64,000 bases of DNA from an uncultured Gammaproteobacteria bacterium (GTDB lineage Bacteria; Patescibacteriota; Microgenomatia; UBA8517), in contig CAZRGC010000003.1 in assembly GCA_964599625.1 (NCBI GenBank), positions 97,759 through 161,758 of the forward strand. The letters are read 5' to 3'. The position numbers were made by a program, and so were the translations under genes. Under the pieces are notes generated by a model. The model saw only the letters and a list, made by a program, of their open reading frames with translations, ran no database searches and had not been told where the DNA came from. Each line of letters begins with the position of its first letter. The stretch's first letter is position 1. This document shows, one piece after another, positions 5,980-48,065 of the stretch.

Positions 5980-6006
5980 TTTACAAGCTATTTTGTTGTG
6001 TATAAT
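5980..6006 (+). promoter_or_regulatory. Putative sigma70-type promoter (TTTACA-15nt-TATAAT)
   Basis: TTTACA 5980-5985, TATAAT 6001-6006. Confidence 0.4.
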
Positions 6007-6559
6007 GTTTGAAATGGCAGAGGTTGGATACAATGTTTACGCACAAGAACGAAGATATATAGAAACCCGTGTTGCTGAGATTACATTGGTGGAGCATATA
6101 GCAACAATGTATAAATCCATTCAAGACAATGTTACTACGGGTTGGCATTCTGTAAACAATACTCAAAACCAAATTCTGGACATATTGGCAAACGATTACA
6201 ATTCATGGCAATCGTTTCCTGAGCACCAAAATAAAGCAGGTTTGGACAGGGGCGCTCACGGTGAATACTTTATGAGACTGATTGGAGCCGGAATATTGGA
6301 GGATTTACCTCACAGATTTTTGTCAGAAGATGGAAAAGACATTTCGGGCGTAGAAATTCTCGCCACTCCTTCAGGAGACGACGGTGTAGGTATATTTGAT
6401 GTGACTTTTAAAATAGAATCAGGCAAAAAGAATGAATTTGGAAGGGTTAGAGTAAACGCAAGTATGCAATCACTTAGAGCTAGGATGAAAGATTTGTCCG
6501 AAGAGATGCGAATTTATAACGAAAGAATAAATGAAGGTAGGGGCGATTGGCAAAAATGA
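5993..6559 (+). CDS. Hypothetical protein (likely true start at ATG 6014, just downstream of the -10 box)
   Basis: Long ORF with no recognisable motifs. The annotated start codons overlap the promoter hexamers. Confidence 0.4.
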   Translation: MLCIMFEMAEVGYNVYAQERRYIETRVAEITLVEHIATMYKSIQDNVTTGWHSVNNTQNQILDILANDYNSWQSFPEHQNKAGLDRGAHGEYFMRLIGAGILEDLPHRFLSEDGKDISGVEILATPSGDDGVGIFDVTFKIESGKKNEFGRVRVNASMQSLRARMKDLSEEMRIYNERINEGRGDWQK

Positions 6560-7649: not shown

Positions 7650-9377
7650 ATGAAAACATCTTCGCAAAGCAAAAACATGAATGAAAAAAATATAAAAACC
7701 AATCCCTCGATAATGACAACAAAAGTTACAGGTGGAATGAAATTTATAGCACTTTCGGGAACAACAGGTGTTACAGAGAATCTTTATGTATATGAATACG
7801 GTAACGACATGGTTGTTGTTGACTGTGGTGTCGGGTTTCCCGAATCTGAAATGTTTGGGGTGGACCTGGTTATACCTGATTTTTCTTATATAAAACAAAA
7901 CGCCCACAAATTAAGAGGTGTTCTTATTTCTCATGGACACGAAGACCACATTGGAGGTTTACCTTTCCTGCTAAAGGAAGTAAAAACCACAGTGTATGCC
8001 AGTAAACTTGTTGCCGGTTTTATTCAGGAGAAACTTGATGATGCAGAGGTCCAGGGGAATATTAAAGTCTTTGACCCCGAACGTGATGTTTTGACACTTG
8101 GAGTTTTTAAAGTTACACCTTTCAGAGTTGCCCACTCGGTTCCCGATGGGGTTGGTTTTTGTATCGACACACCCGAAGGAAAAATGTTCCATGTGCCGGA
8201 TTACAAATTTGATTGGACACCTGTAGATGGTAGGCCGTTTGACGTCGCAAAACTTTCTGTTCTGGCATCTGGTGGTGCATTGGCCTTGGCATCGGATTCT
8301 CTGGGGTCTACTTCACCTGGATACACTGAAAGCGAGAGAGAGATAGAAGGCAGAATTGAACCTATTGTGCGGGACGCCAAAGGTAAGGTGTACCTGACCA
8401 CTATCTCGTCAAATATAAGTCGTATGCAGCAAACTCTTAATGTCGCAGCAAAAACAGGAAGAAAAGTATGTTTCATTGGCAGATCTATCGTCAGAAAGTC
8501 CGAAATAGCCAGAGATCTGGGTTTTATGTCGCAGGGGAACGGAATAATTGTTCAACCCAAACAAGCCGCCAAACTTCCACCCAATAAAGTTCTTTATATT
8601 ATTTCAGGTAGTTACGGTCAACCCGGAAGTGCACTATACAGGCTTTGTCTGGGCGACCACGACTTCTTGTCTATTGGCAGTAATGACGTGGTTATATTTT
8701 CGGCAGATCCTGCTCCTCCAGGCAGTAAGGCAAATGTTGATTTTTTGGTAGACAAATTAATCGAGTCTGATGTGGATGTGCATTATTACGACATGCAGGA
8801 AGATCTTCATGTTTCGGGACATGGATGTATCAAAGACATCGAAATGCTTTTTGCTTTAGTTAGACCAAAGTATTTTATACCAATTGGTGGAACAGTAAGA
8901 CACAATAGAGCATATGGACTTATTGCTCAAAGTATGGGTGCCGAAGAAAAAGAAATCCTTGCACTTTTGCCTGGCGACATTGTTGAGTTTAATTCTGGAA
9001 TAGCCAGAAGGTCCGGAAAAATTCAGGTTAAAGAGGTGCTGGTTGACGGATTAGGCATTGGAGATGTTGGCAATTCGGTATTAAGGGATAGACACATCCT
9101 TTCTAAAGAGGGAGTTGTTATTGCAATGTGCCAATTTGATCGCAACAACGGTGTTCTTTCCGCACTCCCCGAAATGATAAGCCGAGGTTTTGTTTTTGAA
9201 CAAAAATATGGCCGGCTTTTGGATGAAGCGTCACGGGACCTTGCAAAGGTCCTGGATAGAAAAAAGAATGTTAACGCGCTTTTTATACGAAACACTACGA
9301 TTGATTTTCTCGAAAAATATTTCTTCCAAAAAACAGGCAGGCGCCCAATGATACTTCCGTTGGTTGTGGAGACTTGA
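7650..9377 (+). CDS. rnj: Ribonuclease J (metallo-beta-lactamase / beta-CASP)
   Basis: VVVDCGVGFPE..ISHGHEDHIGGLPFLL, HVSGHG, beta-CASP region. 575 aa. The true start may be an internal Met (approx. 7737). Confidence 0.85.
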   Translation: MKTSSQSKNMNEKNIKTNPSIMTTKVTGGMKFIALSGTTGVTENLYVYEYGNDMVVVDCGVGFPESEMFGVDLVIPDFSYIKQNAHKLRGVLISHGHEDHIGGLPFLLKEVKTTVYASKLVAGFIQEKLDDAEVQGNIKVFDPERDVLTLGVFKVTPFRVAHSVPDGVGFCIDTPEGKMFHVPDYKFDWTPVDGRPFDVAKLSVLASGGALALASDSLGSTSPGYTESEREIEGRIEPIVRDAKGKVYLTTISSNISRMQQTLNVAAKTGRKVCFIGRSIVRKSEIARDLGFMSQGNGIIVQPKQAAKLPPNKVLYIISGSYGQPGSALYRLCLGDHDFLSIGSNDVVIFSADPAPPGSKANVDFLVDKLIESDVDVHYYDMQEDLHVSGHGCIKDIEMLFALVRPKYFIPIGGTVRHNRAYGLIAQSMGAEEKEILALLPGDIVEFNSGIARRSGKIQVKEVLVDGLGIGDVGNSVLRDRHILSKEGVVIAMCQFDRNNGVLSALPEMISRGFVFEQKYGRLLDEASRDLAKVLDRKKNVNALFIRNTTIDFLEKYFFQKTGRRPMILPLVVET

Positions 9378-9456: not shown

Positions 9457-11592
9457 ATGAAGCAAAGAAAAAGAATAACAAAACGGGGTTTCAAATTAAA
9501 ACTTAAGAAGGAAACTACTTTTTCTATTGCTCAGATTTTTTTCTTTATTTTTTCTGCTCTTATTTTGGTCTCTTTTTCAAAACAGGGCGCAATTCTTCGG
9601 GGTTTTAATGACTTTTTAACAAATTATTTTGGATGGTCTGCTGTGTTTTTGCCATTTATAACCCTGTCGTTTGCGTTTCTGGTGTCCAAAATTAAATTTC
9701 CTTTGGGTCAACCCAATGTTGTTGTCGGCGGACTTCTTTTTTTTGTTTCTGTGATGGCTTTGGGTAAGGCGGGGGCTTTGGGAGTGGGCTCCTGGGAGAT
9801 GATTGCCAGTTTGATATCTGGGTTTGGGGCTGGATTGGTTTTTTTCTGCTCGGCCTTTATTGGGTTAATAGTTCTTTTTAACACTTCAGTAGATGTTGTT
9901 TTTAAATATTTACAGGGACTTTTCAAGACAGCAAAAGGATATGTAAAAAGCGATACACAATTTAAAGTTAGCGGTTCCGGCATTAGTAAACCCTTAAGCA
10001 CGGGTCCTTTGAAAGTTGTTGGTGGTGGCGCTTCCCCAGCCATTAATTCGAATACTACGGTTACTCCTACAAAAACTACTGTACCCGCAGCCGTTCCTCA
10101 TGCTGCGCTTGAACAAAAGTTGGTGAGCAATGTTCCAGGCGAAGAGATGATTTGGAAATATCCGTCGGTAAATCTTCTTAGTGAAACGGACAATGGTAAA
10201 GCAGAGCGAGGAGATATCAAAGGCAACGCTGATACTATCGAGAAAACCCTGGACTCTTTTGGAATATCTGCGCGTGTTGTGGAAGTAAACCTTGGCCCTG
10301 CTGTCACACAGTATGCCCTAGAGGTGGCACTTGGAACCAAGCTTTCCAAAATAACCTCACTCGAACGTGATTTGGCATTGGCACTTTCCGCACCAACAGG
10401 AACTATAAGAATAGAGGCTCCAATTCCTGGGCGTAATTTAGTGGGAATTGAGCTTCCAAACCGATCTGCCGAGTTTGTGAGTCTAAGAAAAATGATGTCT
10501 TCTGATGAAATGCTGGGTCATAAATCTAAGCTCGCGGTTGCATTGGGTTTTGATGTTTCGGGTAAGCCTATTGTTGCAGATGTTGCCAGAATGCCCCATG
10601 TGCTTATTGCAGGACAAACAGGATCCGGAAAGTCTGTTTGTATAAACACTTTCCTTGCATCAATTCTTTTCAGAGCAGCACCAACCGAAGTAAAAATGAT
10701 ATTGGTTGACCCTAAGCGAGTAGAAATGACTGGTTACAATGGAATTCCCCATTTGTTGACCCCTGTTATAGTTGAGCCGGATAAAGTCATAAACGCTCTT
10801 AATTGGGTAATGGGGGAAATGGATAGAAGATACAAACAATTTGCCGAAGCAGGCGCCAGAAACATTGAGGCTTATAACGAGATGTCCGGTTTTCAAGCCC
10901 TGCCTTATATAGTTGTAGTTATCGACGAACTTGCTGATATTATGCTTTTTTCACCTGTTCAAGTTGAGGACGCCATTACCAGGATTGCACAAATGAGCCG
11001 TGCAACCGGGATACACATGGTCCTGGCAACTCAAAGGCCGTCTGTGGATGTCATTACCGGACTCATTAAAGCAAATGTACCAAGCAGGATTGCATTTGCC
11101 GTGTCGTCCCAAATTGACTCTCGTGTTATTTTGGATACACAAGGAGCAGAAAAGCTTTTGGGTAAAGGTGATATGCTTTATCTACCTCCGGAACAAGCTA
11201 AGCCGTTGAGAATTCAAGGGGCTTTCGTGAATGACAAAGAAATAAACGCTTTGGTATCGTTTATTAAAAATCAGGGAATTGAGCCGCACTACACCGAAGG
11301 TGTCACAACAAGTGTTAAGCCGGGCACTGTTGTAGTTCCGGGAGTTGAAGGAGGGGTTGATGATATGTTCAAAGAAGCGGTAAGGGTGGTGTGTCAATTT
11401 GATCGAGCAAGCGCGTCACTTTTGCAAAGAAAACTTTCAATTGGTTATTCAAGGGCAGCAAGAGTTATAGATCAGTTGGAAGCTGCGGGGGTGGTGGGCC
11501 CCTCTGATGGAACAAGTAAACCCAGAGAAGTATTGGTGCAAAATGCGGAAGAATTCCTTGCCTCATTCGGTGCTCAGCCAGCCCAAGGTTAG
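9457..11592 (+). CDS. ftsK: DNA translocase FtsK/SpoIIIE
   Basis: N-terminal TM segments. Motor domain with Walker A AGQTGSGKSVCIN, Walker B VVVIDELADIM, and a gamma wHTH domain at the C-terminus. Confidence 0.9.
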   Translation: MKQRKRITKRGFKLKLKKETTFSIAQIFFFIFSALILVSFSKQGAILRGFNDFLTNYFGWSAVFLPFITLSFAFLVSKIKFPLGQPNVVVGGLLFFVSVMALGKAGALGVGSWEMIASLISGFGAGLVFFCSAFIGLIVLFNTSVDVVFKYLQGLFKTAKGYVKSDTQFKVSGSGISKPLSTGPLKVVGGGASPAINSNTTVTPTKTTVPAAVPHAALEQKLVSNVPGEEMIWKYPSVNLLSETDNGKAERGDIKGNADTIEKTLDSFGISARVVEVNLGPAVTQYALEVALGTKLSKITSLERDLALALSAPTGTIRIEAPIPGRNLVGIELPNRSAEFVSLRKMMSSDEMLGHKSKLAVALGFDVSGKPIVADVARMPHVLIAGQTGSGKSVCINTFLASILFRAAPTEVKMILVDPKRVEMTGYNGIPHLLTPVIVEPDKVINALNWVMGEMDRRYKQFAEAGARNIEAYNEMSGFQALPYIVVVIDELADIMLFSPVQVEDAITRIAQMSRATGIHMVLATQRPSVDVITGLIKANVPSRIAFAVSSQIDSRVILDTQGAEKLLGKGDMLYLPPEQAKPLRIQGAFVNDKEINALVSFIKNQGIEPHYTEGVTTSVKPGTVVVPGVEGGVDDMFKEAVRVVCQFDRASASLLQRKLSIGYSRAARVIDQLEAAGVVGPSDGTSKPREVLVQNAEEFLASFGAQPAQG

Positions 11593-11673
11593 TGTAATAA
11601 TATAAAATTCCGTTAGGAGATGTTAGGCGATTCGAAGAATCTCCAAAGATGAATTTTATATAAAACAAATTTT

Positions 11674-12303
11674 ATGAAAACAATTGGACAGATACTCAAA
11701 AATGCCCGTGTTGAAAAAAAACTTTCAATTGCTGATCTGGAAGACACCACAAAGATCAAGGAATCTTTTCTAAGATCGATCGAAAATGAAAACTGGTCGT
11801 CACTTCCCGCATTCCCAGTGGTACTGGGTTTTGTAAAGAGCATATCAGGTGTGTTGCATTTAAACGAAAACACAACGGTGGCAATTCTTAAAAGGGACTA
11901 CCCACCCAAGAAACTGACAATAAATCCAAGTCCGGATATTTCTGATAAAAAAATGGTGTGGGGTCCAAAGACGACTTTTTTTGCCGGTGTTTTTTTTGTG
12001 GTTCTTTTTGTTGTTGGGTATTTGGGTTACCAATACTACAAATTTGTTTCTCCACCAATGATAAGACTGGAAAGTCCCAAGGAGAATCAAATGATTTCAG
12101 GGAGTTCTGTTCTCGTGTTTGGTTCAACAGATACAGACGCCAAAATAACTGTAAACAACCAACCTGTTTTGGTTGATGACGGGGGTAAGTTCAAAGTAGA
12201 TCTTGGAGTGAGCAAAGCGACTCAGGAAGTTGTTGTGAAGGCCACGTCCCGTACTGGCAAAGAGAGTGTAGTTTCGCGTAAAATAAACGTAAGTCAAAAC
12301 TGA
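11674..12303 (+). CDS. HTH (XRE-type) domain membrane protein, RodZ-like
   Basis: N-terminal HTH (..LSIADLEDTTKIKESFLRSIEN..), a single TM (FFAGVFFVVLFVVGYL), and an extracytoplasmic C-terminal domain. Confidence 0.55.
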   Translation: MKTIGQILKNARVEKKLSIADLEDTTKIKESFLRSIENENWSSLPAFPVVLGFVKSISGVLHLNENTTVAILKRDYPPKKLTINPSPDISDKKMVWGPKTTFFAGVFFVVLFVVGYLGYQYYKFVSPPMIRLESPKENQMISGSSVLVFGSTDTDAKITVNNQPVLVDDGGKFKVDLGVSKATQEVVVKATSRTGKESVVSRKINVSQN

Positions 12304-12306
12304 TAT

Positions 12307-12540
12307 ATGGACTCTGTTCAAACACTTTTAGTGATCGTAGTGATAAGCCTGACGTTGCTTTTGATGGTTGTGGGTGTTCAAGTGATGCTTATAATTTTTG
12401 ATCTTAGAAAGGCAATCAAAAGACTCAATAGTATTTTGGAAGACTCAATTTTGGGTGGAGGACTTATACGACCCGAAAAGCTGACTTCAGTTATGGAGAT
12501 CCTCAGGAAAAACAAGAAAATTGAGACTCACGGAGGATAG
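12307..12540 (+). CDS. Small hypothetical membrane protein
   Basis: 77 aa with one hydrophobic helix. No motifs. Confidence 0.3.
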   Translation: MDSVQTLLVIVVISLTLLLMVVGVQVMLIIFDLRKAIKRLNSILEDSILGGGLIRPEKLTSVMEILRKNKKIETHGG

Positions 12541-12582
12541 GAGTATAATCTATAGGATAGTTTTCGTTTAGAGGAGTGAACC

Positions 12583-12936
12583 TTGAACATAAGATTACCC
12601 TACTGGATTACAGGGATTGCCTGGATCCTTATATTTATCTACCTGGGATACAACAACATCAACTACCTTTCCGGGCGCCCTAACACATATTTTGGCGGTG
12701 TCGAGGCCATGATTCTCGTCATGGGTGGTGTTGGTCTTGTTTTTTCGGTCTTTCAATTTAAGTATGGGCTTTTGGGAGTTGGCATCCTGATGCTGGTGTT
12801 CGCTGTATGTGGCGGGCTTGCGACAATTATCACATCGGTGAACCTGGAATACATGGTGCAGTATTTGAAAGGTTTGTCCTTTCTGGCTCACACCTCCCTT
12901 CCCAATTTTGTGGTTCTTTTTGACAAAGAAAGTTAA
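12583..12936 (+). CDS. Hypothetical integral membrane protein (TTG start)
   Basis: 117 aa with 3-4 predicted TM helices. Confidence 0.4.
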   Translation: MNIRLPYWITGIAWILIFIYLGYNNINYLSGRPNTYFGGVEAMILVMGGVGLVFSVFQFKYGLLGVGILMLVFAVCGGLATIITSVNLEYMVQYLKGLSFLAHTSLPNFVVLFDKES

Positions 12937-12985: not shown

Positions 12986-14815
12986 ATGCGATATACTTTA
13001 CGCATGACGACGAAGGAAATAAGAGAAAAATATTTAGAATTTTATAAAAAACAAAACCATAAGATTATTGCTCCATCTCCGTTGGTTTTGGAAAACGACC
13101 CAACAACGCTGTTTACTTCGTCCGGAATGCAACAAATGATCCCCTACTTAAAAGGTGAGACGCATCCTCTGGGAAAAAGACTTGTTGATTCGCAGCCGTC
13201 ACTCAGGCTGCAAGATTTGGAAGAAGTTGGAGATAATCGTCATACGACTTTTTTTGAAATGCTTGGTAATTGGAGTTTGGGTGATTACTTTAAAGACGAA
13301 CAACTCAATTGGATCTGGCAGTTTTTTACAAAGGAGCTTGGGCTTAATCCCGACAGACTTTACGTGTCATGTTTTGCCGGAAACGAGAGTGTTGCAAAAG
13401 ATGAGGAATCATACGAAATTTGGAAAAAAATTGGTGTTCCCGAAAATCACATTCATTTTTATGATGCCAAAAAAAACTGGTGGAGCAGAGCAGGTGGGCC
13501 CGACCAAATGCCTGCTGGTGAAGTGGGTGGACCAGATAGTGAAGTCTTTTTTGAATTTGAGAATGTGTCCCACAACCCAGAATTTGGCAAATTTTGTCAT
13601 CCGAACTGCGACTGTGGAAAATTCATGGAGATTGCCAACTCAGTTTTTATGCAGTTTAAAAAAGAGAGTAGCGGGAGTTTGAGCGAGCTGCCTCAGAAGA
13701 ATGTCGACTTTGGGGGAGGTCTCGAAAGAATCTCGGCTGCTTTAAACAATGATCCTGATATTTTTAAAATAGACATTTTTGACTCAATTGTTAAGAAGAT
13801 TGAAAAAGAAGTTGGTGCAGAGTACGGAACTGACGAAAAGAAGACAAAGAGTTTCAGGGTTATAGCGGATCATCTTCGTGCTTCCTGCAATCTTCTTTCG
13901 GAGGGCGTCATTCCTTCCAACAAGCTCCAAGGTTATGTGCTTAGGCGTTTGGTTAGACGGGCGATGTTTCACTTTCACTTGTTGGGAAGCGGAATTTCTG
14001 GGAGTGCAGTCTCATCCATCGCTGAAAGCCTTAGAAATGAGTATCCAATTATCGATAAAAACTGGCAAGTTGTATCAGAAAACTTGACTATAGAGGCAAC
14101 AAAGTTTGAATCTGCTCTCAAACGGGGTCTTGCCAAATTGACTAAGGGGGTTTCCGGTGGCAAAAACATTGACGGTAAGTTTGCATTTGACTTGTATCAA
14201 ACAGAGGGTTTTCCTCTTGAGCTTACGCTTGAGATTTTGACTCAAAACGGAATGCAGTTTAGTGACAACGAGAAGAATAATTTTGCATCGGAATTTGAAA
14301 AACATAAAGAAAACTCAAGAACAACAAGTGCCGGAATGTTTAAAGGTGGTTTGGAAAGTAAGAGCGATGAGACAATCACCAAGTTGCATACTGCGACACA
14401 TCTTTTGCATGCATCGCTGAGAAAGGTATTGGGAGAACATGTTTCCCAAAAAGGAAGCCATATTACGAAAGAAAGATTGAGATTTGATTTTTCTCACCAA
14501 TCTAAACTTACTCAAGAACAGATAAAAGAAATTGAAAATCTTATAAACGAACAAATTAAAAAAGATTTACCTGTGTCTTTTGAGATGAAAACTCTTGATG
14601 AGGCGATTACAGAAGGCGCTTTGCATTTTTTTGCGGAGAGATATGGGAGTGAGGTTAAAGTCTATACGATTGGTGACCCTAAGGGTGATTATTTTTCTAA
14701 AGAAATATGTGGCGGTCCCCATGTTGCCCACACTGGCGAGGTTGGTAATATTAGTATAATAAAGCAAGAGAGCATTGGTTCAGGAACAATTAGGATTTAT
14801 GCGTCTATAACCTGA
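12986..14815 (+). CDS. alaS: Alanine--tRNA ligase (short form, lacks C-terminal C-Ala domain)
   Basis: N-terminal catalytic core (..TLFTSSGMQQ..HHTFFEMLGNWSLGDYFK..), editing domain with HTATHLLHASL and ..GGPHV.. motifs. 609 aa. Confidence 0.9.
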   Translation: MRYTLRMTTKEIREKYLEFYKKQNHKIIAPSPLVLENDPTTLFTSSGMQQMIPYLKGETHPLGKRLVDSQPSLRLQDLEEVGDNRHTTFFEMLGNWSLGDYFKDEQLNWIWQFFTKELGLNPDRLYVSCFAGNESVAKDEESYEIWKKIGVPENHIHFYDAKKNWWSRAGGPDQMPAGEVGGPDSEVFFEFENVSHNPEFGKFCHPNCDCGKFMEIANSVFMQFKKESSGSLSELPQKNVDFGGGLERISAALNNDPDIFKIDIFDSIVKKIEKEVGAEYGTDEKKTKSFRVIADHLRASCNLLSEGVIPSNKLQGYVLRRLVRRAMFHFHLLGSGISGSAVSSIAESLRNEYPIIDKNWQVVSENLTIEATKFESALKRGLAKLTKGVSGGKNIDGKFAFDLYQTEGFPLELTLEILTQNGMQFSDNEKNNFASEFEKHKENSRTTSAGMFKGGLESKSDETITKLHTATHLLHASLRKVLGEHVSQKGSHITKERLRFDFSHQSKLTQEQIKEIENLINEQIKKDLPVSFEMKTLDEAITEGALHFFAERYGSEVKVYTIGDPKGDYFSKEICGGPHVAHTGEVGNISIIKQESIGSGTIRIYASIT

Positions 14816-14878: not shown

Positions 14879-17107
14879 ATGAATTTAAAAGATTTTTTGT
14901 CCAACAAAGGAAAACCACCCGAACTCTATTGGTCGTTGGTATTGGAAGACGGTTGGGTTCAAGCCGGTATTTGGTATATAGATCAGTCTGTTGCGCAGGT
15001 TGTTGGAACAAGTCCCGCAGCAGCATGGGAAGTCAAAGAAGAATTGGTTGGAGCAACTGATTCAGCTTTGTCTTCGGCGATTCAAAGACTTCCGGAGGAT
15101 TACCCCGAACCCAACAAGACAGTGTTTGGCGTTCCTTCTTCATGGGTCAAAAACGGCGAGATCGACGAAGATCATTTGAGGTTGATTAAAAAAATTTGTT
15201 CAGAACTATCATTGATACCTGTGGGTTTTGTTGTGCTTCCTGAAGCAATTGCACATCTTTACAAGTCTGAAGAAGGGGCGCCTGTTAATGCGATAGTAAT
15301 GGGAATAGGGAGAGAGAATTTGGAAATTGCAGTGTTTTCTTTGGGTAATCTGTTGGGTACAACTCAGGTTGCCAGAAGTGTGTCTTTAATCGATGATGTT
15401 ACCGAGGGGCTATCCAGATTTGAAAGCTCTTCACCGCTCCCGTCTAGGTTTATTCTTTTTGACGGAAAAGGGGGAGAGTTGGAGGATGCTAAAGACCAAA
15501 TCCTAAAAAATCGTTGGGAAGAGAGTGAAAGAGTCAAATTTTTACACACACCAAAAGCTGAAATATTGCTCCCCGAAAGGAAAGTTTTGGCAACGTCTTT
15601 GGCGGGTGCAAACGAAATTGCAGATGTCTCAAAAGTTGAAACTCAAGACCAAAAAGAAGTTATCGAAGGTCCCTATACGGAGAACATCCCACCCGAAACA
15701 GCAAATGTCCAGGAAACAAACGAAGTTACACCTGAAGACCTTGGTTTTTCTTTGGATTCCGACGTGAGTTTGAACAAACAGGTTGAACCTGATGTTGTAA
15801 AAGCTTTTGAAAAACCGCCGGCTACTGAGCACGTGCAGCCCACGATTCACCGTCAATCTCCTGTTTTTGAACATAAGCCAAAAATTAACCTTAAAGAAAT
15901 GTTCAATAAAGTGAAAACAAAAGCATCGGCTTTGCTGAAAAGACTTTCGTTTTCGGCAAAAATCTCTTCTGCCAGACATGGAGTGATGAAGCCGGTGTAT
16001 CTGGTTGTTCTTGTGCTTGTTTTGGCAGGACTAGGGGCGCTTTGGTGGTTTGTACCCAAAGCGGAAGTAGTTGTATATGTTAGGCCTCAAATAGTTCAGG
16101 AAGAAACAGAAGTTGTATTTACAACTAGTGGCCAGGGTGACATAAATTCGGGGTTGGTTGCTGCCAAATCCGTGACCTCTAATGTTAGCGGCGAAAAGAC
16201 GAAGTCGGCAACTGGAAGCAAACTTGTCGGTGACAAAGCCAAGGGTACAGTACAAATTCAAAACGGCACAGCATTTCCAATCAATCTGACTGCCGGAACT
16301 TTTTTGGTGTCGTCGGGTAATTTAAAATTCGAACTTGATCAGGCAGCCTCAGTCTCTGCTGCGCTGTCCCCGACTTCGCCGGGAACGGCTAGCTTGTCTG
16401 TGACGGCGGGTTCGATAGGCGCGGAATACAATTTGGCAAAAAGTGAAGTATTCAAGGTAGGCAATTATCCCAAAGCCGAGGTTGATGCCACATCAATAAC
16501 CGACTTTGCAGGAGGAAGCTCCAGACAGATTTCAGCCGTAAGCAAAGTGGATATTGAAACATTGCAAACTTCACTTAAAGAGGAGCTAGTACAAAAAGCA
16601 AAGGAAGATTTATCGTCTAAGGTTTTAGACGGCCAAGTGTTGGTTTCTGATTTTGTTTCAAGCGATGTTGCATCCGAAACATTTGATCACAAACAGGGTG
16701 AAGAAGCCAACAACGTTAAGTTAAATATGGAGATTGCTGCCAATGCGCTTGTGGCCGACAAGAACAATTTATATGATTTTGCATCAAAAGTTCTGACTGA
16801 CAAAAAACCGGAGGGTTTTGTTTTAAGAAACGAACAAATAAAGTTCGAGTTTAGTTTTGTGGAACAAAAAGACGAGGGTTATGTTTACAAGGTAAAAATC
16901 AATGCAAATTTCCTACCTTCATTTTCTGAGAAGGACATAGTAGATAAAATTATTGGAAAGAACCGGGCAACCGCAAAAAATTATCTGTCGAGTATTCCTG
17001 GCTTCGTAAGGGTGGAACTGAAAATCAATCCGCCTTATCCGTTTATATTTAACAGCCTTCCAAGAGTTAGAAAAAACATTGATATTACAGTTGAGGCAGA
17101 CAGGTAG
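14879..17107 (+). CDS. FtsA/PilM-like actin-fold domain fused to a TM segment and a large extracytoplasmic domain (function unknown)
   Basis: N-terminal ~230 aa show the actin-like ATPase pattern (..LIKKICSELSLIPVGFVVLPEAIAHLY...AIVMGIGRENLEIAVFSLGN..). TM at ~aa 370-392 (VYLVVLVLVLAGLGALWWFV). ~350-aa C-terminal domain with no motifs. Confidence 0.5.
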   Translation: MNLKDFLSNKGKPPELYWSLVLEDGWVQAGIWYIDQSVAQVVGTSPAAAWEVKEELVGATDSALSSAIQRLPEDYPEPNKTVFGVPSSWVKNGEIDEDHLRLIKKICSELSLIPVGFVVLPEAIAHLYKSEEGAPVNAIVMGIGRENLEIAVFSLGNLLGTTQVARSVSLIDDVTEGLSRFESSSPLPSRFILFDGKGGELEDAKDQILKNRWEESERVKFLHTPKAEILLPERKVLATSLAGANEIADVSKVETQDQKEVIEGPYTENIPPETANVQETNEVTPEDLGFSLDSDVSLNKQVEPDVVKAFEKPPATEHVQPTIHRQSPVFEHKPKINLKEMFNKVKTKASALLKRLSFSAKISSARHGVMKPVYLVVLVLVLAGLGALWWFVPKAEVVVYVRPQIVQEETEVVFTTSGQGDINSGLVAAKSVTSNVSGEKTKSATGSKLVGDKAKGTVQIQNGTAFPINLTAGTFLVSSGNLKFELDQAASVSAALSPTSPGTASLSVTAGSIGAEYNLAKSEVFKVGNYPKAEVDATSITDFAGGSSRQISAVSKVDIETLQTSLKEELVQKAKEDLSSKVLDGQVLVSDFVSSDVASETFDHKQGEEANNVKLNMEIAANALVADKNNLYDFASKVLTDKKPEGFVLRNEQIKFEFSFVEQKDEGYVYKVKINANFLPSFSEKDIVDKIIGKNRATAKNYLSSIPGFVRVELKINPPYPFIFNSLPRVRKNIDITVEADR

Positions 17108-17145
17108 CACTTAACTTCATCCAAATAATTGTTTATATTTGTGAG

Positions 17146-17826
17146 ATGGATCAACGTACAGTTCTTAGAATATCGGCAATAATCTCAGGTATATCAGGGG
17201 TAATAATACTGGTTGGAGTTTTTTATCCAATAATTTCATACAATTCATCAAAAACCATACCACTCGTTGCACCCGTAACCGAAGAAAATTCCGGTAACCC
17301 TGTTGTTGAAGGTTATCAAACCACACAAAGTTTGGACTACACCCAGGCCAGCAATTGGTTTCAGGGTGGTAATGTTACCAAGAGTGACTTTATTTCTTCG
17401 AAAATTGAATACTACACAATAACCATCCCCAAACTGAAAATTGACTCTGCAACTGTGGCAATTGGTGGAGAGGATTTAAGCAGCCACCTTATACAGTATC
17501 CCGGAACCGCCGTACCGGGAAAAAGGGGAAACTCAGCGATTTTTGGACATTCTATTTTGCCAATTTTTTACAACCCCAAAAATTATCTTGCAATATTTTC
17601 ACTTCTGCCAACCCTTAAGAAAGGTGACGAGATTTTCATCAACTACGACGGTATAGCCTACACTTATAAGGTTGAGTCCATGTTTGAAGTTCTTCCAACA
17701 GACATTCAAGTTCTTGACCAGGATTCCTCTGACTCATTTTTGACACTTGTCACATGCGTACCTCCGGGAGACCCAGGACAACCAAGGAGGCTTGTTGTTA
17801 GGGCAAGAGTTGTTCCGCCTACTTAA
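17146..17826 (+). CDS. Sortase family transpeptidase
   Basis: N-terminal TM anchor, conserved His (AIFGHS), TLVTC active-site Cys motif, conserved Arg near the C-terminus. Confidence 0.75.
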   Translation: MDQRTVLRISAIISGISGVIILVGVFYPIISYNSSKTIPLVAPVTEENSGNPVVEGYQTTQSLDYTQASNWFQGGNVTKSDFISSKIEYYTITIPKLKIDSATVAIGGEDLSSHLIQYPGTAVPGKRGNSAIFGHSILPIFYNPKNYLAIFSLLPTLKKGDEIFINYDGIAYTYKVESMFEVLPTDIQVLDQDSSDSFLTLVTCVPPGDPGQPRRLVVRARVVPPT

Positions 17827-18219
17827 ATGAAAATCATCGGAATAGATTACGGAAGAAAAAAAATAGGAGTGGCACTTTCTATAAACGGATTTGTGGAGCC
17901 AATCAAGGTGTTGCATCTTTCCAACTACCAAGATGGTTTGCAAAAAATAAGAAGCGTGGTTGAATCCGAGAGTCCAGAAAAGATTGTCGTGGGTGTTTCT
18001 GAGGGCGAAATGGGCCTTGAGATAGAAGATTTTGCTGATGACTTGGCAGAAATGCTCAGTCCAACTCAGATTGAACTTTTTGATGAGACCCTCTCTACAA
18101 AAGATGCTAACTTTATTGCCAGGGAATCTGGTGTCGGACGTAAAAAGCTAAAAGAGATGGAAGATGCCTATGCGGCTACGATAATGCTCCAAAACTATTT
18201 AGACTCAAGCGTCTCGTAG
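17827..18219 (+). CDS. ruvX: Putative pre-16S rRNA nuclease / Holliday junction resolvase-like YqgF (RuvX)
   Basis: IIGIDYGRKKIGVALS N-terminal motif of the YqgF family. 130 aa. Confidence 0.8.
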   Translation: MKIIGIDYGRKKIGVALSINGFVEPIKVLHLSNYQDGLQKIRSVVESESPEKIVVGVSEGEMGLEIEDFADDLAEMLSPTQIELFDETLSTKDANFIARESGVGRKKLKEMEDAYAATIMLQNYLDSSVS

Positions 18220-18273
18220 TTTGCCAATTCTTGGCTGGTCCTAAAAAAGATAGTTTGGATTTGTCGAAAAAGG

Positions 18274-18300
18274 TTGACACGCCAGCCTTCGTGTTATACT
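18274..18300 (+). promoter_or_regulatory. Putative sigma70-type promoter (TTGACA-15nt-TATACT)
   Basis: Consensus -35 at 18274-18279, -10 at 18295-18300. ATG at 18313. Confidence 0.5.
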
Positions 18301-18312
18301 TTTATTACACAA

Positions 18313-18507
18313 ATGTTTAAAACAGTTATAGCACCAATACAGGCTTGGTTGATGAGTCAAGGAAGATGTGTGGGTTGTGGAACTGAACTTTCGGAAGGAA
18401 CAACCAAAAGTACAAGATTTGGTGAACAGGTTACCTGCAAAAAATGCGGTAGGATTTTTATCAAGAAAGACGGAAAATACCGCAGGGCCCTTCTTGAAGA
18501 GGTTTGA
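18313..18507 (+). CDS. Small zinc-ribbon protein (CxxC...CxxC), hypothetical
   Basis: 65 aa with CVGCG..CKKCG. The start is placed at the ATG after the promoter rather than the ORF-track start at 18274. Confidence 0.4.
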   Translation: MFKTVIAPIQAWLMSQGRCVGCGTELSEGTTKSTRFGEQVTCKKCGRIFIKKDGKYRRALLEEV

Positions 18508-18515
18508 TTTTTTAA

Positions 18516-19487
18516 ATGAAAAAGCTACTTTACGTTCCTTTGTTTCTCTTGTTGCTTGCTTTGGGAATTTTTGCCTGGTTTTACTCAGTAATTAAACCCG
18601 TGGCATCAACCAAAGAGTTCACAACTTTTGTAATCAATAGGGGCCAGTCTGCAGGTCAAATTGCTCAAAATTTGGAAAGTTCTGGGATTATAAGAAGTGC
18701 TTTGGCTTTCAAAGTTTATCTTCAATTCACAAATCAGTCTGGAAAAATTCAAACGGGTGAATTTAGACTTTCGCCGGGACTTTCGCTGTTCGAAGTTGTT
18801 GATGCATTGCAAAAAGGACCATTGGAAATTTGGGTCACAATACCCGAAGGACTAAGAAGAGAAGAGGTGGCTTCAAGATTTGCAGATACTCTTGGAAAAG
18901 ATCAGCTGTTTGTCGACGAATTTTTGAGTCTGACTGAGGGCAAAGAAGGAATGCTTTTTCCTGACACATATCTGTTTCCTAAAGAAGCGTCTGCGTCATC
19001 AATTGTTAAAAAGTTGTTGAGCAATTTTGATGCCAAAACCCAAGGTTTGTCTTCCGCAACCAACCTTAACCCTAACCAAGTACTAACATTGGCATCCCTG
19101 ATCGAGAGAGAGACAAAAAAAGGCAGTGAAAGAGAAATTGTTGCGGGAATACTTTTGAAACGCATGGAAGCGGGTTGGCCCCTGCAGGTTGATGCTGCCG
19201 TTCAGTATGCAGTTGCAGATAAAAAGTCGGGAGGAAAGTCTTTGGATAATTGGTGGCCGATATTAACCAGAGATGACTTGGGAATAGATTCACCATACAA
19301 TACTTACAGGTTTCAGGGCCTACCACCGGCACCAATTGCAAACCCAGGGTTGACCGCAATTAAAGCTGCTTATAGTCCCCAAGACTCAGAATATTGGTAC
19401 TATATACATGACAACTCAGGTGTAATCCACTACGGCAGGACACTTGAAGAGCACAACCAAAACATTGCAAAGTACTTGGGGAAATGA
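18516..19487 (+). CDS. mltG: Endolytic murein transglycosylase MltG (YceG family)
   Basis: N-terminal TM, YceG-like domain with the GLPPAPIANPG catalytic-region motif. Confidence 0.85.
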   Translation: MKKLLYVPLFLLLLALGIFAWFYSVIKPVASTKEFTTFVINRGQSAGQIAQNLESSGIIRSALAFKVYLQFTNQSGKIQTGEFRLSPGLSLFEVVDALQKGPLEIWVTIPEGLRREEVASRFADTLGKDQLFVDEFLSLTEGKEGMLFPDTYLFPKEASASSIVKKLLSNFDAKTQGLSSATNLNPNQVLTLASLIERETKKGSEREIVAGILLKRMEAGWPLQVDAAVQYAVADKKSGGKSLDNWWPILTRDDLGIDSPYNTYRFQGLPPAPIANPGLTAIKAAYSPQDSEYWYYIHDNSGVIHYGRTLEEHNQNIAKYLGK

Positions 19488-27731: not shown

Positions 27732-28511
27732 ATGTCTGGCCCCGATTCCCCTTTTCACTCAGACTCAAGTGTTTTCGAAACAAAAAACTCTCATATAGAC
27801 ACCCCTTTAGAGACAGTAATAAAAGCGGATTATTGGGCCAATTCACATTATCCTCAAATGTGGATAGCAAAACGCCTGGTTACAACGCACGCAGCTTTGG
27901 AACAGGTGCTTGCGGGAAAGTTGTTGTGGAGTGATTTTTCCACATCACAACTCCCCGACGTTTTTATTGAACCCCATATGAAAGAAAAGGCAAATAAAGC
28001 ACATGCTGCATATGGGCAACCTGCAATAATGGATCGTGATCTTAACAACCTGTGGAGGTCTGATGTAAGTGATGTATCAAATACACTTTGGAATTTGCTG
28101 CCCGACAAGGGAGACCCGTTGGAAATCCAAGACGTAACAATTGCCAAAGCCTTGAAAGACCCAAAAAATAAACAGTTTTTTGGGTCGTTGTTGGGTGTAT
28201 TGGCGGCAGAGAAGTCGGCCTTGGAAAGCCAGGAGTGCCTGGAGATATCAAAAGACCTGCGTGAGTCATTAAGAGACCTTCATCATAAAAAATTTGACCG
28301 CGGGTATAGTTTTTCTTTAAAGGAACAAGCTGACTTAAGGGTCAGATGGAACGCTATTTCAGACCGTCTCGAGTCTGTTTTGCAGCGGGAGCTTTCAAAG
28401 GCCAATCAAAAAGCAAAACTGATGCTTAACGATAGCCAATTGGAGTTTCTAACGCATCAAATCCATGTTGGTTCGAGAGTTGTGGCCAGTACGCCGATGG
28501 AGTCTTTTTGA
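27732..28511 (+). CDS. Hypothetical protein inserted between rpsG and fusA
   Basis: 259-aa ORF with no recognisable motifs. Occupies the position where fusA normally follows rpsG directly. Confidence 0.5.
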   Translation: MSGPDSPFHSDSSVFETKNSHIDTPLETVIKADYWANSHYPQMWIAKRLVTTHAALEQVLAGKLLWSDFSTSQLPDVFIEPHMKEKANKAHAAYGQPAIMDRDLNNLWRSDVSDVSNTLWNLLPDKGDPLEIQDVTIAKALKDPKNKQFFGSLLGVLAAEKSALESQECLEISKDLRESLRDLHHKKFDRGYSFSLKEQADLRVRWNAISDRLESVLQRELSKANQKAKLMLNDSQLEFLTHQIHVGSRVVASTPMESF

Positions 28512-30805: not shown

Positions 30806-31600
30806 ATGAATTTCTTTAAGAAAGTTGCTTCTAGTGTTTATTCCCCGGAGTTCTATTCCCAAATACCCAAAATGACACTTGGTTCTGTGTTGGGTTATTT
30901 TTTCTTGCTGCTTCTAGTGGTCGAACTTGTCATGTTTGGCAAAAGCATGCCGGAGTTTATGTTTGGTTTCTCAGGAAAGATAAAATCTACAATAAGCGAG
31001 GTTATCGACACTTATCCCAGTAATTTGGTTTTGACAATCAAAGATGGAGCGCTTTCCACCAATGTTAAGGAGCCTTACTACCTTATGGATAAAACCAACA
31101 ACAAGTTCGCGGTTATAGACACAAAAACTGCATACTCTGCCGATCAATTTAAAAAGTACAACGTACCGGTCTGGGTTACCAAAGATACTGTTTTTTACCA
31201 AGACAGCGACCAAATCAAGAGCAATAGTTTTGTAGAGATGAAAGATATGGTGGTAAACAAAGAACTTGTAAACAGTTTTTCTGCCAAAATATCTCCCTGG
31301 ATTCCATATTTTGGCCCTGTTGTTATGATTTTTGCACTCGTAACTCTTTACGCCCTCCAATCTTTCAGACTGGTTTATGGGTTTTTCCTTGCACTTTTAA
31401 TTTTGCTGGTTGCCAAAATGACCAAGAAAAGTCTGACGTATAAAGAATCTTACAAAGTAGGGATATTTGCCATGACACTACCCTTTATTTTAGAAGCGCT
31501 TAATACCTATATCGGTTGGAAGGCTTTTCCGTTCACTTTTACTATAATTGCACTTATTGTTGTTGGCGTAAATTTTGCAGGATCCAACTCGAAGAAGTAG
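30806..31600 (+). CDS. Hypothetical integral membrane protein inserted between fusA and tuf
   Basis: 264 aa with hydrophobic helices at the N- and C-termini (..LGYFFLLLLVVELVMF.., ..VMIFALVTLYAL.., ..IIALIVVGVNF..). Confidence 0.5.
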   Translation: MNFFKKVASSVYSPEFYSQIPKMTLGSVLGYFFLLLLVVELVMFGKSMPEFMFGFSGKIKSTISEVIDTYPSNLVLTIKDGALSTNVKEPYYLMDKTNNKFAVIDTKTAYSADQFKKYNVPVWVTKDTVFYQDSDQIKSNSFVEMKDMVVNKELVNSFSAKISPWIPYFGPVVMIFALVTLYALQSFRLVYGFFLALLILLVAKMTKKSLTYKESYKVGIFAMTLPFILEALNTYIGWKAFPFTFTIIALIVVGVNFAGSNSKK

Positions 31601-47483: not shown

Positions 47484-48065
47484 ATGAATTCAAACACAAT
47501 AGTAATTTTGGGAACCCTGATTGGTGCAATTGGCTCGATCTTTTATCTTGTCGACGTTGTTAAGGGAAAAATAAAACCCAATCGGGTTTCTTTTATTCTT
47601 TGGTCACTCCCACCATTGATATCTGCATACGCAAATATTAAAAGTGGCGGTGGAATTGAATCTTTAATGACTTTTAGTGTTGGTTTTTTTCCACTGCTTA
47701 TATTTTTGGCAACTTTTCTCAACAAAAAATCCGTTTGGAAACTTACCAAATTTGATTTTGTTTGCGGCGCACTTTCACTTTTGGGATTCCTGCTTTGGCA
47801 GGTAACAAAAGAAGGATATTTGGCAATAACTTTTAGTATAGTTTCCGATTTTTTGGCTGGAATTCCCACCATAACAAAAACTTACAAACACCCAGAAACG
47901 GAACTGGCTTGGCCCTGGTTGATGCCGGTCTTGGGAGAAATTCTTACACTTTCCACACTTGGGGATATTACTTATCTCAACTCAGGTTTCATGATTTACG
48001 TAACTTTGTATAACACAGTCATTTTTCTTTTGGCGCAGTATAAAATCGGAAAGATATGGAAATAA
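47484..48065 (+). CDS. Hypothetical integral membrane protein (about 6 TM)
   Basis: 193 aa with alternating hydrophobic helices. No family motif recognised (PnuC-like was considered, not supported). Confidence 0.45.
   Translation: MNSNTIVILGTLIGAIGSIFYLVDVVKGKIKPNRVSFILWSLPPLISAYANIKSGGGIESLMTFSVGFFPLLIFLATFLNKKSVWKLTKFDFVCGALSLLGFLLWQVTKEGYLAITFSIVSDFLAGIPTITKTYKHPETELAWPWLMPVLGEILTLSTLGDITYLNSGFMIYVTLYNTVIFLLAQYKIGKIWK

What the first reader, a model, noticed from the sequence alone, without database searches (positions are those of the whole stretch)
14879..17826. Actin-like (FtsA/PilM-type) domain fused to a TM helix and a large extracytoplasmic domain, next to a sortase
The N-terminal ~230 aa have the FtsA/PilM sugar-kinase/actin fold signatures. 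A hydrophobic stretch at aa ~370-392 and a ~350-aa extracytoplasmic domain follow, so the architecture looks like a PilM-PilN/PilO-type fusion or an FtsA-FtsQ-like chimera. The next gene is a membrane-anchored sortase. Together they could form a cell-surface assembly or division module specific to this lineage.
Basis: inference. Interest (0 to 1): 0.5.

Follow-up and report, generated by a model that had tools for sequence, protein, structure and literature searches.

The report
Actin-fold/baseplate-J membrane protein beside sortase
A conserved, uncharacterised membrane protein of Microgenomates (CPR) bacteria joins a stripped-down FtsA/PilM-like actin fold inside the cell to a phage-baseplate-J-like domain outside it. 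It almost always sits next to a sortase gene, which suggests an undescribed cell-surface assembly scaffold whose function is still only inferred.

Summary
The interval contains two genes: a 742-aa ORF (14879-17107) and a 226-aa membrane-anchored sortase (17146-17826).

**Distribution and context.** The family is large (1286 clusters at 50% identity) and was found only in Microgenomates-type CPR genomes.
- It always lies between alaS and ruvX-mltG.
- A sortase lies directly downstream in all 55 distinct loci that have downstream DNA.
- The exception is a small lineage where the protein is split into a standalone actin-like gene plus a bitopic J-like gene, with no sortase there.

**Best reading (inferred).** It is a GspL / PilM-PilN-style transmembrane coupling scaffold for cell-surface assembly. 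It is a new variant of a known kind; function untested.

The parts
14879..17107 (+). Gene X: 742-aa bitopic membrane protein (cytoplasmic mini-actin fold, linker, TM helix, baseplate-J-like ectodomain)
   Evidence: ORF; translation. More than 982 full-length homologues of about 710-760 aa. The N-terminus MNLKDFL is nearly invariant, which supports this start codon.
14879..15643 (+). aa 1-255: cytoplasmic actin/ASKHA core (subdomains 1A + 2A only), closest to FtsA and PilM; probably not catalytic
15206..15247 (+). aa 110-123, LSLIPVGFVVLPEA: the most conserved segment. It resembles the 'connect-1' strand-helix of actin-fold proteins.
   Evidence: Conserved in all members, including those at 25-30% identity. 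The assignment to connect-1 is inference from the secondary-structure order.
15644..15898 (+). aa 256-340: variable, acidic, Pro-rich linker predicted to be disordered
   Evidence: Low column identity and many gaps in 120 homologues. Composition.
15734..15766 (+). aa 286-296, EDLGFSLDSDV: conserved short linear motif (family consensus EDLGFxVGxDV) inside the linker. Candidate docking peptide.
   Evidence: G289, F290 and D295 are invariant in alignment A3. 51 of 52 full-length members carry [FLVIM]G[FVI] in the linker. The motif stays in the cytoplasmic tail of the J-like protein when the gene is split (DEAGFVVGGDV, DDTGFIVGADV).
15899..15991 (+). aa 341-371: basic juxtamembrane stretch on the cytoplasmic side
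   Evidence: 8 K/R and 0 D/E. K346 is nearly invariant.
15992..16054 (+). aa 372-392: single transmembrane helix, N-in/C-out
   Evidence: Hydropathy 2.44 plus the positive-inside charge distribution. One strong TM segment lies at the same relative position in all 52 full-length members.
16055..17104 (+). aa 393-742: extracytoplasmic baseplate J/gp47/gp6-like module (beta-barrel plus long-stranded alpha/beta subdomains)
16229..16516 (+). aa 451-546: stretch matched by Pfam Baseplate_J (PF04865), the beta-barrel subdomain
   Evidence: E 5.5e-4, 19.7 bits against a cut-off of 21.1. All 44 family members scanned match, best E 4.5e-7.
17146..17826 (+). Sortase: 226 aa, with an N-terminal membrane anchor (aa 12-30) and a catalytic domain (aa 92-222) carrying His135, Cys204 and Arg215
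   Evidence: PF04203 8.4e-25 and TIGR01076 48.8 bits (cut-off 39.35). All class A-F models score far below their cut-offs. The FGHS, LvTC and RlxVrA motifs are at least 95% conserved in 52 orthologues. It starts 38 nt after X ends; its stop codon directly abuts the ruvX start.
12986..14815 (+). Context: alaS (alanyl-tRNA synthetase), always immediately upstream of X
   Evidence: Pfam and NCBIfam. Synteny in 55+ loci.
17827..19487 (+). Context: ruvX (17827-18219) and mltG/yceG (18516-19487), always downstream of the sortase
9457..12303 (+). Context: ftsK (9457-11592) and a RodZ-like HTH_25 + TM + Ig-like protein (11674-12303), upstream in the same conserved block

Best explanation
**What it is (shown).** X is a lineage-specific, vertically inherited envelope protein of Microgenomates-type CPR bacteria. 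It is built as a transmembrane coupling scaffold.
- A minimal FtsA/PilM-like actin-fold domain lies in the cytoplasm. It has no 1C or 2B subdomain and no conserved ATP-binding motifs, so it probably acts as a binding or oligomerisation module rather than an ATPase.
- A long flexible linker tethers this domain to one TM helix.
- A complete baseplate-J/gp47-like module sits on the outer face of the membrane.

**How it most likely works (inferred).** It works like GspL or the PilM-PilN pair.
- The actin-fold domain docks a short conserved cytoplasmic peptide (the EDLGFxVGxDV motif, in cis or between neighbouring subunits) and/or another cytoplasmic partner.
- The molecule oligomerises.
- In this way it positions an extracytoplasmic platform that organises assembly of cell-surface material.
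- In almost all lineages this involves the co-transcribed, catalytically intact sortase.
For: **Fold and topology**
- N-in/C-out with a single TM helix.
- Ectodomain is baseplate-J-like.

**Non-catalytic character**
- Phosphate-1, phosphate-2 and adenosine motifs vary freely between members, while other surface segments are invariant.

**Fixed architecture**
- 1286 representatives at 50% clustering carry the N-domain. In the 150 listed it lies at about residues 1-255; the shorter listed entries look like fragments.

**Rosetta-stone evidence that the two halves work together**
- In three loci (L066, L068, L069) the same chromosomal slot holds a standalone ~303-aa homologue of the N-domain, directly followed by a ~540-aa bitopic J-like protein.
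- hhalign of the X N-domain profile against the standalone family gives probability 97.5% and E 8e-12.
- The conserved linker motif stays on the cytoplasmic tail of the membrane-spanning half. This mirrors PilN's N-terminal peptide, which PilM binds (established knowledge of PDB 2ych and 5eou).

**Sortase link**
- A sortase is directly downstream, on the same strand, often overlapping or within 50 nt, in 50 of 50 GTDB-representative loci with downstream DNA and in L004-L006, L065 and L067. This includes L055, where rpoB lies elsewhere.
- The sortase catalytic His, Cys and Arg are conserved.
- No convincing terminator lies between alaS, X, the sortase and ruvX.

**Envelope context**
- The surrounding conserved block contains the envelope and division genes ftsK, a rodZ-like gene and mltG.
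Against: - No experiment or interaction prediction supports any partner. Oligomerisation, peptide docking and the X-sortase interaction are all inference.
- The whole region (RNase J, ftsK, rodZ-like, alaS, X, sortase, ruvX, mltG, rpoBC) is frozen synteny. Adjacency alone is therefore weaker evidence of functional coupling than it would be in a shuffled genome.
- The split lineage keeps both halves of X but has no sortase in that interval.
- No sorting-signal substrate was found in the window or in 61 related loci.
- Sequence and profile methods give no link to GspL, PilM or FtsA.
- The ectodomain is unlike the ferredoxin-like periplasmic domains of GspL, PilN and PilO.
Confidence: 0.45

Rival explanations
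1. **Divisome or elongasome component.** X is an FtsA-like membrane tether that links a cytoplasmic cytoskeletal element (FtsZ, or MreB via RodZ) to extracytoplasmic wall synthesis or remodelling. The sortase is only a syntenic neighbour.
For: - A flexible linker plus membrane anchor mimics FtsA's linker plus amphipathic helix.
- The conserved neighbours are ftsK, a rodZ-like gene and mltG.
- The split lineage keeps X without a sortase in that interval.
Against: - X lacks subdomain 2B, which binds the FtsZ tail in FtsA, and lacks 1C (established FtsA structural knowledge).
- ATP-binding motifs are not conserved.
- X is not next to ftsZ, ftsQ or ftsW in the window.
- The ectodomain is not POTRA/FtsQ-like.
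- ftsA transcripts are reported among ultra-small groundwater prokaryotes, CPR included (PMC9938205). A canonical FtsA may therefore exist separately. This was not checked for this genome.
Confidence: 0.2
2. **Type IV pilus or T2SS-type assembly-platform protein.** X is a fused PilM-PilN / GspL orthologue serving the CPR type IV pilus.
For: - The architecture (actin fold, TM helix, outer domain) equals that of GspL.
- CPR bacteria depend heavily on type IV pili (PMC6744442).
Against: - No pilB, pilC, pilN, pilO or pilin gene lies nearby in any of about 60 loci.
- CPR and Microgenomates genomes already encode a separate PilM, co-localised with the other pilus genes (PMC7143001; PMC6744442).
- No HMM or hhalign signal to PilM or GspL.
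- The ectodomain fold is different.
Confidence: 0.1
3. **Frozen synteny with an unrelated envelope role.** X acts independently of the sortase, for example as a glycan- or S-layer-binding anchor that uses the J-like/GlxA-like barrel. The gene pair simply persists in a rarely rearranged housekeeping block.
For: - The whole 15-kb block is collinear across the class.
- The barrel subdomain also occurs in Streptomyces GlxA, an extracellular partner of a glucan synthase.
- The split lineage has no sortase in the same interval.
Against: - The X-sortase pair persists where other parts of the block have moved (L055, L067).
- The pair is tightly spaced or overlapping.
- alaS-ruvX-mltG is a widespread bacterial cluster (my knowledge of Firmicutes genomes) into which exactly these two genes appear to have been inserted together.
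Confidence: 0.2
4. **Prophage or contractile-injection-system remnant.** X is a baseplate J/gp47 structural protein, as the public annotation name implies.
For: - PGAP names homologues 'baseplate J/gp47 family protein'.
- A weak Pfam Baseplate_J hit and clear fold similarity.
Against: - No PHROG family matches.
- No tail, sheath, tube or other phage gene lies in the window or in related loci.
- The gene has a fixed position between alaS and ruvX in every genome.
- X has a TM helix and a cytoplasmic actin-fold domain.
- X shows vertical divergence parallel to RpoB and AlaRS.
Confidence: 0.03

Closest known systems
GspL (type II secretion) and the PilM-PilN pair (type IVa pilus)
   Same: - A cytoplasmic actin-fold domain is coupled through one bitopic TM segment to an extracytoplasmic domain.
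- Fused forms (GspL, X) and split forms (PilM + PilN; the L066-type lineage) both exist.
- A short conserved cytoplasmic peptide sits on the membrane-spanning half, as in PilN.
   Different: - No sequence or profile similarity.
- X lacks the extra subdomain of PilM and GspL.
- Its outer domain is baseplate-J-like, not ferredoxin-like.
- No secretion or pilus genes are adjacent.
- Its partner gene is a sortase.
FtsA (bacterial cell-division actin homologue)
   Same: - The core is attached to the membrane through a long flexible linker.
   Different: - X lacks 1C and 2B.
- Nucleotide-binding motifs are not conserved.
- It has a true TM helix plus a 350-aa ectodomain instead of an amphipathic helix.
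- It is not in a dcw cluster.
- No FtsA HMM hit.
Baseplate J / Mu gp47 / T4 gp6 / diffocin TRI-2 wedge proteins (Pfam PF04865)
   Same: - There is a weak but family-wide Pfam signal.
   Different: - X is cellular, membrane-anchored and fused to a cytoplasmic domain.
- There is no contractile-tail context and no PHROG hit.
- TM-scores are low (~0.22), so the subdomain arrangement differs.
GlxA of Streptomyces lividans (domain 2, Pfam PF21110 'GlxA beta barrel')
   Same: - Both are extracellular parts of N-terminally membrane-anchored envelope proteins.
   Different: - GlxA is a copper-radical oxidase built on a beta-propeller.
- Only the ~120-aa inserted barrel is shared.
Sortases, classes A-F
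   Same: The neighbouring gene has the sortase fold signature, a conserved His-Cys-Arg triad and an N-terminal anchor.
   Different: - It fits none of the curated class models (best is class C at 50 bits against a cut-off of 160).
- No pilin or LPXTG gene is adjacent.
- Its constant neighbour is X.

Membership tests
FtsA | Match to FtsA sequence models (Pfam FtsA/SHS2_FTSA, NCBIfam FtsA) | tested here: not met
   No actin-family hit for X or for any of 44 homologues at E <= 0.1. A family profile against PDB sequences gave 0 hits. hhalign against E. coli FtsA gave E 0.4.
FtsA | Actin-like 1A + 2A core fold | tested here: met
   [not shown]
FtsA | Subdomains 1C (SHS2 insert) and 2B (FtsZ-tail binding) | tested here: not met
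   The 255-aa domain has only the two beta-beta-beta-alpha-beta-alpha-beta-alpha units, with short connections where 1C and 2B would be inserted. Only 213 of FtsA's 370 residues align.
FtsA | Conserved ATP-binding motifs (phosphate 1, phosphate 2, adenosine) | tested here: not met
   The corresponding positions vary freely among members. Examples: LVLEDGW against LTLTDEL, and MGIGRENLE against IQITKDLVH.
FtsA | C-terminal amphipathic membrane-targeting helix; gene in the dcw cluster beside ftsZ | tested here: not met
   X has a true TM helix plus an ectodomain. Its neighbours are alaS and a sortase. No ftsZ or ftsQ is present in the 64-kb window.
PilM / PilM-PilN | PilM sequence-model match and adjacent pilN/O/B/C genes | tested here: not met
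   No HMM hit. hhalign against E. coli HofM gave E 0.1. No pilus genes occur in about 60 loci.
PilM / PilM-PilN | Actin-fold domain that binds a short conserved cytoplasmic peptide of its bitopic partner | not testable with these tools
   A conserved motif (EDLGFxVGxDV) exists and segregates with the membrane-spanning half when the gene is split. Binding itself was not modelled because the structure-prediction jobs were exhausted.
GspL | Architecture: cytoplasmic actin-like domain, one TM helix, periplasmic domain | tested here: met
GspL | GspL sequence models, ferredoxin-like periplasmic domain, T2SS operon context | tested here: not met
   No HMM hit. hhalign against E. coli GspL gave E 0.39. 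The ectodomain is baseplate-J-like. No gsp genes are nearby.
Baseplate J / gp47 (PF04865) | Pfam model above the gathering threshold | tested here: inconclusive
   The window protein scores 19.7 bits against a cut-off of 21.1 (E 5.5e-4), covering only model positions 20-109 of 255. All 44 members match at E <= 0.1, best 4.5e-7. About a fifth of listed homologues carry a precomputed PF04865 hit.
Baseplate J / gp47 (PF04865) | Wedge-protein fold | tested here: met
   [not shown]
Baseplate J / gp47 (PF04865) | Part of a contractile tail or injection-system gene set | tested here: not met
   No phage or CIS genes occur in the window or loci. No PHROG match.
Sortase (neighbouring gene) | Sortase domain model and catalytic His-Cys-Arg | tested here: met
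   PF04203 at 87.4 bits and TIGR01076 at 48.8 bits (cut-off 39.35). His135, Cys204 and Arg215 are at least 95% conserved in 52 orthologues.
Sortase (neighbouring gene) | Assignment to a known class (A-F, GN) | tested here: not met
   Best class scores are 50 bits (class C) and 48 bits (class E), against cut-offs of 160.
Sortase (neighbouring gene) | Cognate substrate with a C-terminal sorting signal (LPXTG-like motif, hydrophobic stretch, basic tail) | tested here: inconclusive
   None was found in the 64-kb window or in 61 related loci. Whole genomes could not be searched with these tools.

The most novel reading that the evidence does not exclude
X subunits assemble into a previously unseen trans-envelope machine of Microgenomates.
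- Inside the cell, a PilM/FtsA-like ring forms.
- Outside the cell, a baseplate-like ring of J-type wedge modules forms. This would be a cellular, non-contractile use of a phage baseplate building block.
- The machine serves as the membrane platform on which the dedicated, unclassified sortase builds or anchors a surface fibre or adhesin used for attachment to host cells.
Probability: 0.1. Interest if true: 0.85.

Novelty: new variant of a known kind. Interest (0 to 1): 0.55.

Why it matters
- **Scale of the gap.** Microgenomates are a large, uncultivated part of the CPR. Their cell envelope and the way they attach to hosts are essentially unknown.
- **A missed domain.** This protein sits at a fixed position in every Microgenomates-type locus sampled and has more than 1200 sequence clusters. 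Databases label it 'hypothetical' or, misleadingly, 'baseplate J/gp47 family'. Its cytoplasmic actin-fold domain is invisible to current sequence models.
- **A concrete handle.** Recognising it as a bitopic actin-fold scaffold with a baseplate-type ectodomain, locked to the near-universal Microgenomates sortase, gives a testable entry point into CPR surface biogenesis.
- **Wider points.** It shows a phage baseplate module used in a cellular membrane protein. It also adds a minimal, probably nucleotide-independent member to the FtsA/PilM/GspL group of actin-fold membrane adaptors.

Tried and rejected
1. **Sequence and profile detection of an actin fold.** Pfam, NCBIfam, phmmer and a family HMM against PDB sequences, and hhalign against single E. 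coli FtsA, HofM and GspL all gave nothing significant.
3. **X as a sortase substrate.** Rejected.
   - It has no C-terminal sorting signal.
   - Its topology is N-in/C-out, so its TM helix has the wrong orientation.
   - The 'VPKAE' segment after the TM helix and the 'LPGxLG' near the C-terminus are not conserved.
4. **Sorting-signal substrates nearby.** None in the window or in 61 loci.
5. **Prophage or defence origin.** No PHROG or PADLOC hits.
6. **AlphaFold-database fold search.** The library was unavailable.
7. **Literature.** No paper in the searchable library describes this family or links baseplate J, an actin-like domain and a sortase in CPR.
8. **Presence of a separate ftsA in the same genome.** This could not be tested.
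9. **Promoter and terminator scan.** It gave no more sites than expected from shuffles and no clear terminator inside alaS-X-sortase-ruvX. I used it only as weak support for co-transcription.
Full report
**1. What is at the coordinates**

The interval 14879-17826 holds two + strand ORFs:
- X, 14879..17107 (742 aa)
- a 226-aa ORF, 17146..17826

The window is about 41% G+C and almost entirely coded on the + strand. The local gene order is:
- RNase J (7650-9377)
- FtsK (9457-11592)
- a RodZ-like HTH_25 / TM / Ig-like protein (11674-12303)
- small membrane ORFs
- AlaRS (12986-14815)
- X, then the sortase
- RuvX (17827-18219)
- MltG/YceG (18516-19487)
- RpoB and RpoC

The closest relatives of X come from Woesebacteria and other Microgenomates (CPR/Patescibacteria) MAGs.

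**2. The sortase**

- The 226-aa ORF matches Pfam Sortase at 8.4e-25 and the general NCBIfam sortase model above its cut-off.
- No class A-F model comes near its threshold.
- It has one N-terminal hydrophobic anchor (aa 12-30).
- His135 (FGHS), Cys204 (LvTC) and Arg215 are at least 95% conserved in 52 orthologues.
- It therefore looks like an active, membrane-anchored sortase of an unclassified CPR clade.

**3. The N-terminal domain of X**

Sequence methods see nothing:
- Pfam and NCBIfam give no actin-family hit for X or for 44 homologues.
- phmmer and a family HMM against all PDB sequences return zero hits.
- hhalign of a 133-sequence N-domain profile against E. coli FtsA, HofM (PilM) and GspL is not significant.

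Structure prediction is clear:
- With a 67-sequence alignment, AlphaFold2 models aa 1-255 at pLDDT 91.7 and pTM 0.90.
- The model consists of two consecutive beta-beta-beta-alpha-beta-alpha-beta-alpha units, which is the ASKHA/actin core.
- P. aeruginosa PilM (15.8), E. coli FtsA (15.4) and T. thermophilus PilM (15.3) follow.

Features of the domain:
- It contains only subdomains 1A and 2A. The loops where 1B/1C and 2B are inserted in other family members are short.
- In an alignment that includes members only 25-30% identical, the positions equivalent to the phosphate-1, phosphate-2 and adenosine motifs are not conserved.
- Other elements are conserved: W32, D61, F83-G84, W89, LSLxPVGFVxxEA (110-123), DVxEGLxRF (173-181), LPxR (187-190), W213 and FLHxPxxE (221-228).

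I infer a non-catalytic binding or oligomerisation module.

**4. Linker, membrane span and topology**

- Residues about 256-340 are variable, acidic and Pro-rich.
- They contain one conserved short motif: EDLGFSLDSDV at 286-296, family consensus EDLGFxVGxDV. G289, F290 and D295 are invariant in 44 sequences.
- 51 of 52 full-length members carry the [FLVIM]G[FVI] core of the motif in the linker.
- A basic stretch follows (8 K/R, 0 D/E), then a single strong hydrophobic helix (372-392) and a net-acidic flank.
- This gives N-in/C-out topology. All 52 full-length members have one TM helix at this position.

**5. The ectodomain**

- AlphaFold2 models aa 388-742 at pLDDT 87.9 and pTM 0.62, consistent with an elongated multi-subdomain shape.
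- Foldseek aligns essentially the entire 355 residues to these ~350-aa wedge proteins (334-374 columns, E 1.2e-6 to 6.5e-5, probability 1.0). TM-scores are about 0.22, so the fold content is the same but the subdomains are packed differently.
- Pfam Baseplate_J hits aa 451-546 just under threshold in the window protein, and hits all 44 homologues scanned (best 4.5e-7).
- There is no PHROG or PADLOC match.

**6. Distribution and context**

- A word-indexed search found more than 982 homologues, all about 710-760 aa.
- An exhaustive search with the N-domain alone found 1286 representatives of 50% clusters (988 at E <= 1e-10).
- In the 150 listed, the match is always at residues about 1-255. Most listed proteins are about 670-820 aa, and the shorter entries look like fragments.
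- A scan of GTDB species representatives returned 55 loci labelled Woesebacteria, Microgenomates, Beckwithbacteria, Pacebacteria or generic Patescibacteria. Some carry evidently wrong 'Gammaproteobacteria' labels.
- tblastn of the window's neighbours shows alaS immediately upstream.
- A sortase lies immediately downstream in all 50 loci that extend past X. ruvX and mltG follow in nearly all of them.
- This holds for members only 25-30% identical (L053-L059) and for L055, where rpoB has moved.
- Independent contigs agree.
- The spacing is tight: 38 nt in the window, often overlapping elsewhere. No convincing terminator lies inside alaS-X-sortase-ruvX.

**7. A split-gene lineage**

- In L066, L068 and L069 the same slot (alaS ... 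ruvX-mltG) contains two genes: a standalone ~303-aa protein followed by a ~540-aa protein.
- The ~540-aa protein has a TM helix and a J-like ectodomain 31% identical to X residues 392-738.
- The ~303-aa protein starts MNLPNQFF..., like X.
- Its 23-member family aligns to the X N-domain profile with hhalign probability 97.5% and E 8e-12 (X 96-232 against 150-284).
- The linker motif is retained on the cytoplasmic tail of the membrane-spanning protein (DEAGFVVGGDV, DDTGFIVGADV, DEAGFMVGGDV).
- No sortase is detectable in these three loci.

Two conclusions follow:
- The actin-fold and J-like halves form one functional unit. Fused and split forms both exist, as with GspL against PilM + PilN.
- That unit can persist with no sortase gene in that interval.

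**8. Mechanism**

Shown: the fold assignments, the topology, the conserved motif, the fixed architecture, the gene-pair conservation and the split form.

Inferred: X works as a transmembrane coupling scaffold in the manner of GspL or PilM-PilN.
- The cytoplasmic mini-actin domain binds the conserved tail motif and/or another cytoplasmic factor, and may self-associate.
- The J-type ectodomain belongs to a family whose members build oligomeric wedges and rings. It would form a platform on the outer face of the membrane.
- The co-transcribed sortase would carry out surface-protein attachment there.

I put about 0.45 on this general reading. The rivals are:

| Rival reading | Confidence | Main point |
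|---|---|---|
| Divisome or elongasome tether | 0.2 | FtsA is the top hit and ftsK, rodZ-like and mltG are neighbours, but there is no 2B/1C and no dcw context |
| Envelope role unrelated to the sortase, with adjacency being frozen synteny | 0.2 | Whole block is collinear; split lineage has no sortase in that interval |
| Type IV pilus platform protein | 0.1 | No pil genes nearby; a separate PilM is reported in Microgenomates (PMC7143001) |
| Phage or CIS remnant | 0.03 | Contradicted by context, topology and vertical inheritance |

**9. Comparison with known families and novelty**

- X works like, but is not a member of, GspL, PilM-PilN or FtsA. Defining sequence models, subdomains, nucleotide motifs and operon context were tested and not met.
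- Its ectodomain has the baseplate-J fold but not that family's biological context.
- I found no paper describing this family.
- Public names are 'hypothetical protein', 'predicted nucleic acid-binding protein' or 'baseplate J/gp47 family protein'.
- I rate it a new variant of a known kind (bitopic actin-fold membrane adaptors), with an unprecedented ectodomain and partner.
- Interest is 0.55: a large, class-wide, mis-annotated family with a surprising domain combination and a clear experimental path, but no functional evidence yet.

**10. Limits**

- The AlphaFold-database library was unavailable.
- Whole genomes could not be searched for ftsA, sortase substrates, or a relocated sortase in the split lineage.

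Noticed in passing
L066:5059-7623, L068:4461-7038, L069:6001-8555: A small CPR lineage carries X as two genes in the same alaS...ruvX slot, with no sortase there. One gene is a standalone ~303-aa actin-like protein (family of 24) and the other is a ~540-aa bitopic J-like protein. The J-like protein also has an extra conserved ~65-aa N-terminal domain (MRLLEF...) of unknown fold.
   Followed up: partly
window 15734-15766 (X aa 286-296): A conserved short linear motif, EDLGFxVGxDV, lies in an otherwise variable linker. It segregates with the membrane-spanning half in the split lineage. Its binding partner is unknown.
   Followed up: partly
window 1-64000: Nearly every long ORF is on the + strand, and GC skew is positive in all 32 two-kb bins (0.05-0.23). 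This resembles the strand-composition disparity reported for another Microgenomates genome (PMC7143001).
   Followed up: no
window 46505-47476: An APH-family phosphotransferase gene (PF01636, 8.8e-23) lies among ORFs that, from their sizes and order, look like a ribosomal-protein/secY cluster (not checked). Two unassigned ORFs follow it (47484-48065, 48056-48562).
   Followed up: no
window 30806-31600: A DUF1189 protein (5.6e-34) is encoded between two large ORFs (28592-30763 and 31755-32945). By size and position these look like fusA and tuf; I did not check this.
   Followed up: no
window 380-1345, 5993-6559, 27732-28511, 33867-35015, 55955-56998, 58367-58981: Six sizeable + strand ORFs (188-382 aa) have no Pfam match at E <= 0.001. 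They sit inside an otherwise housekeeping region.
   Followed up: no
window 11674-12936: The RodZ-like protein has HTH_25, one TM helix and an Ig-like (Glucodextran_B/Big_6) C-terminal domain instead of RodZ_C. A 77-aa ORF follows it and is conserved across Microgenomates loci. The 117-aa three-TM ORF at 12583-12936 was detected only in the closest relatives (L001-L003, L007).
   Followed up: no
L007, L010, L018, L021, L024 and others: Many MAG records with clear CPR/Microgenomates synteny (RpoB up to 95% identical to the window's) are titled 'uncultured Gammaproteobacteria', 'Alphaproteobacteria' or 'Pseudomonadales'. These look like wrong or placeholder taxonomy labels.
   Followed up: no
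L056-L059, L067 (sortase ORFs): In the most divergent clade of X, the adjacent sortase ORF is much longer (316-345 aa, against 226 aa in the window) because of an N-terminal extension of unknown nature.
   Followed up: no
[not shown]
   Followed up: no
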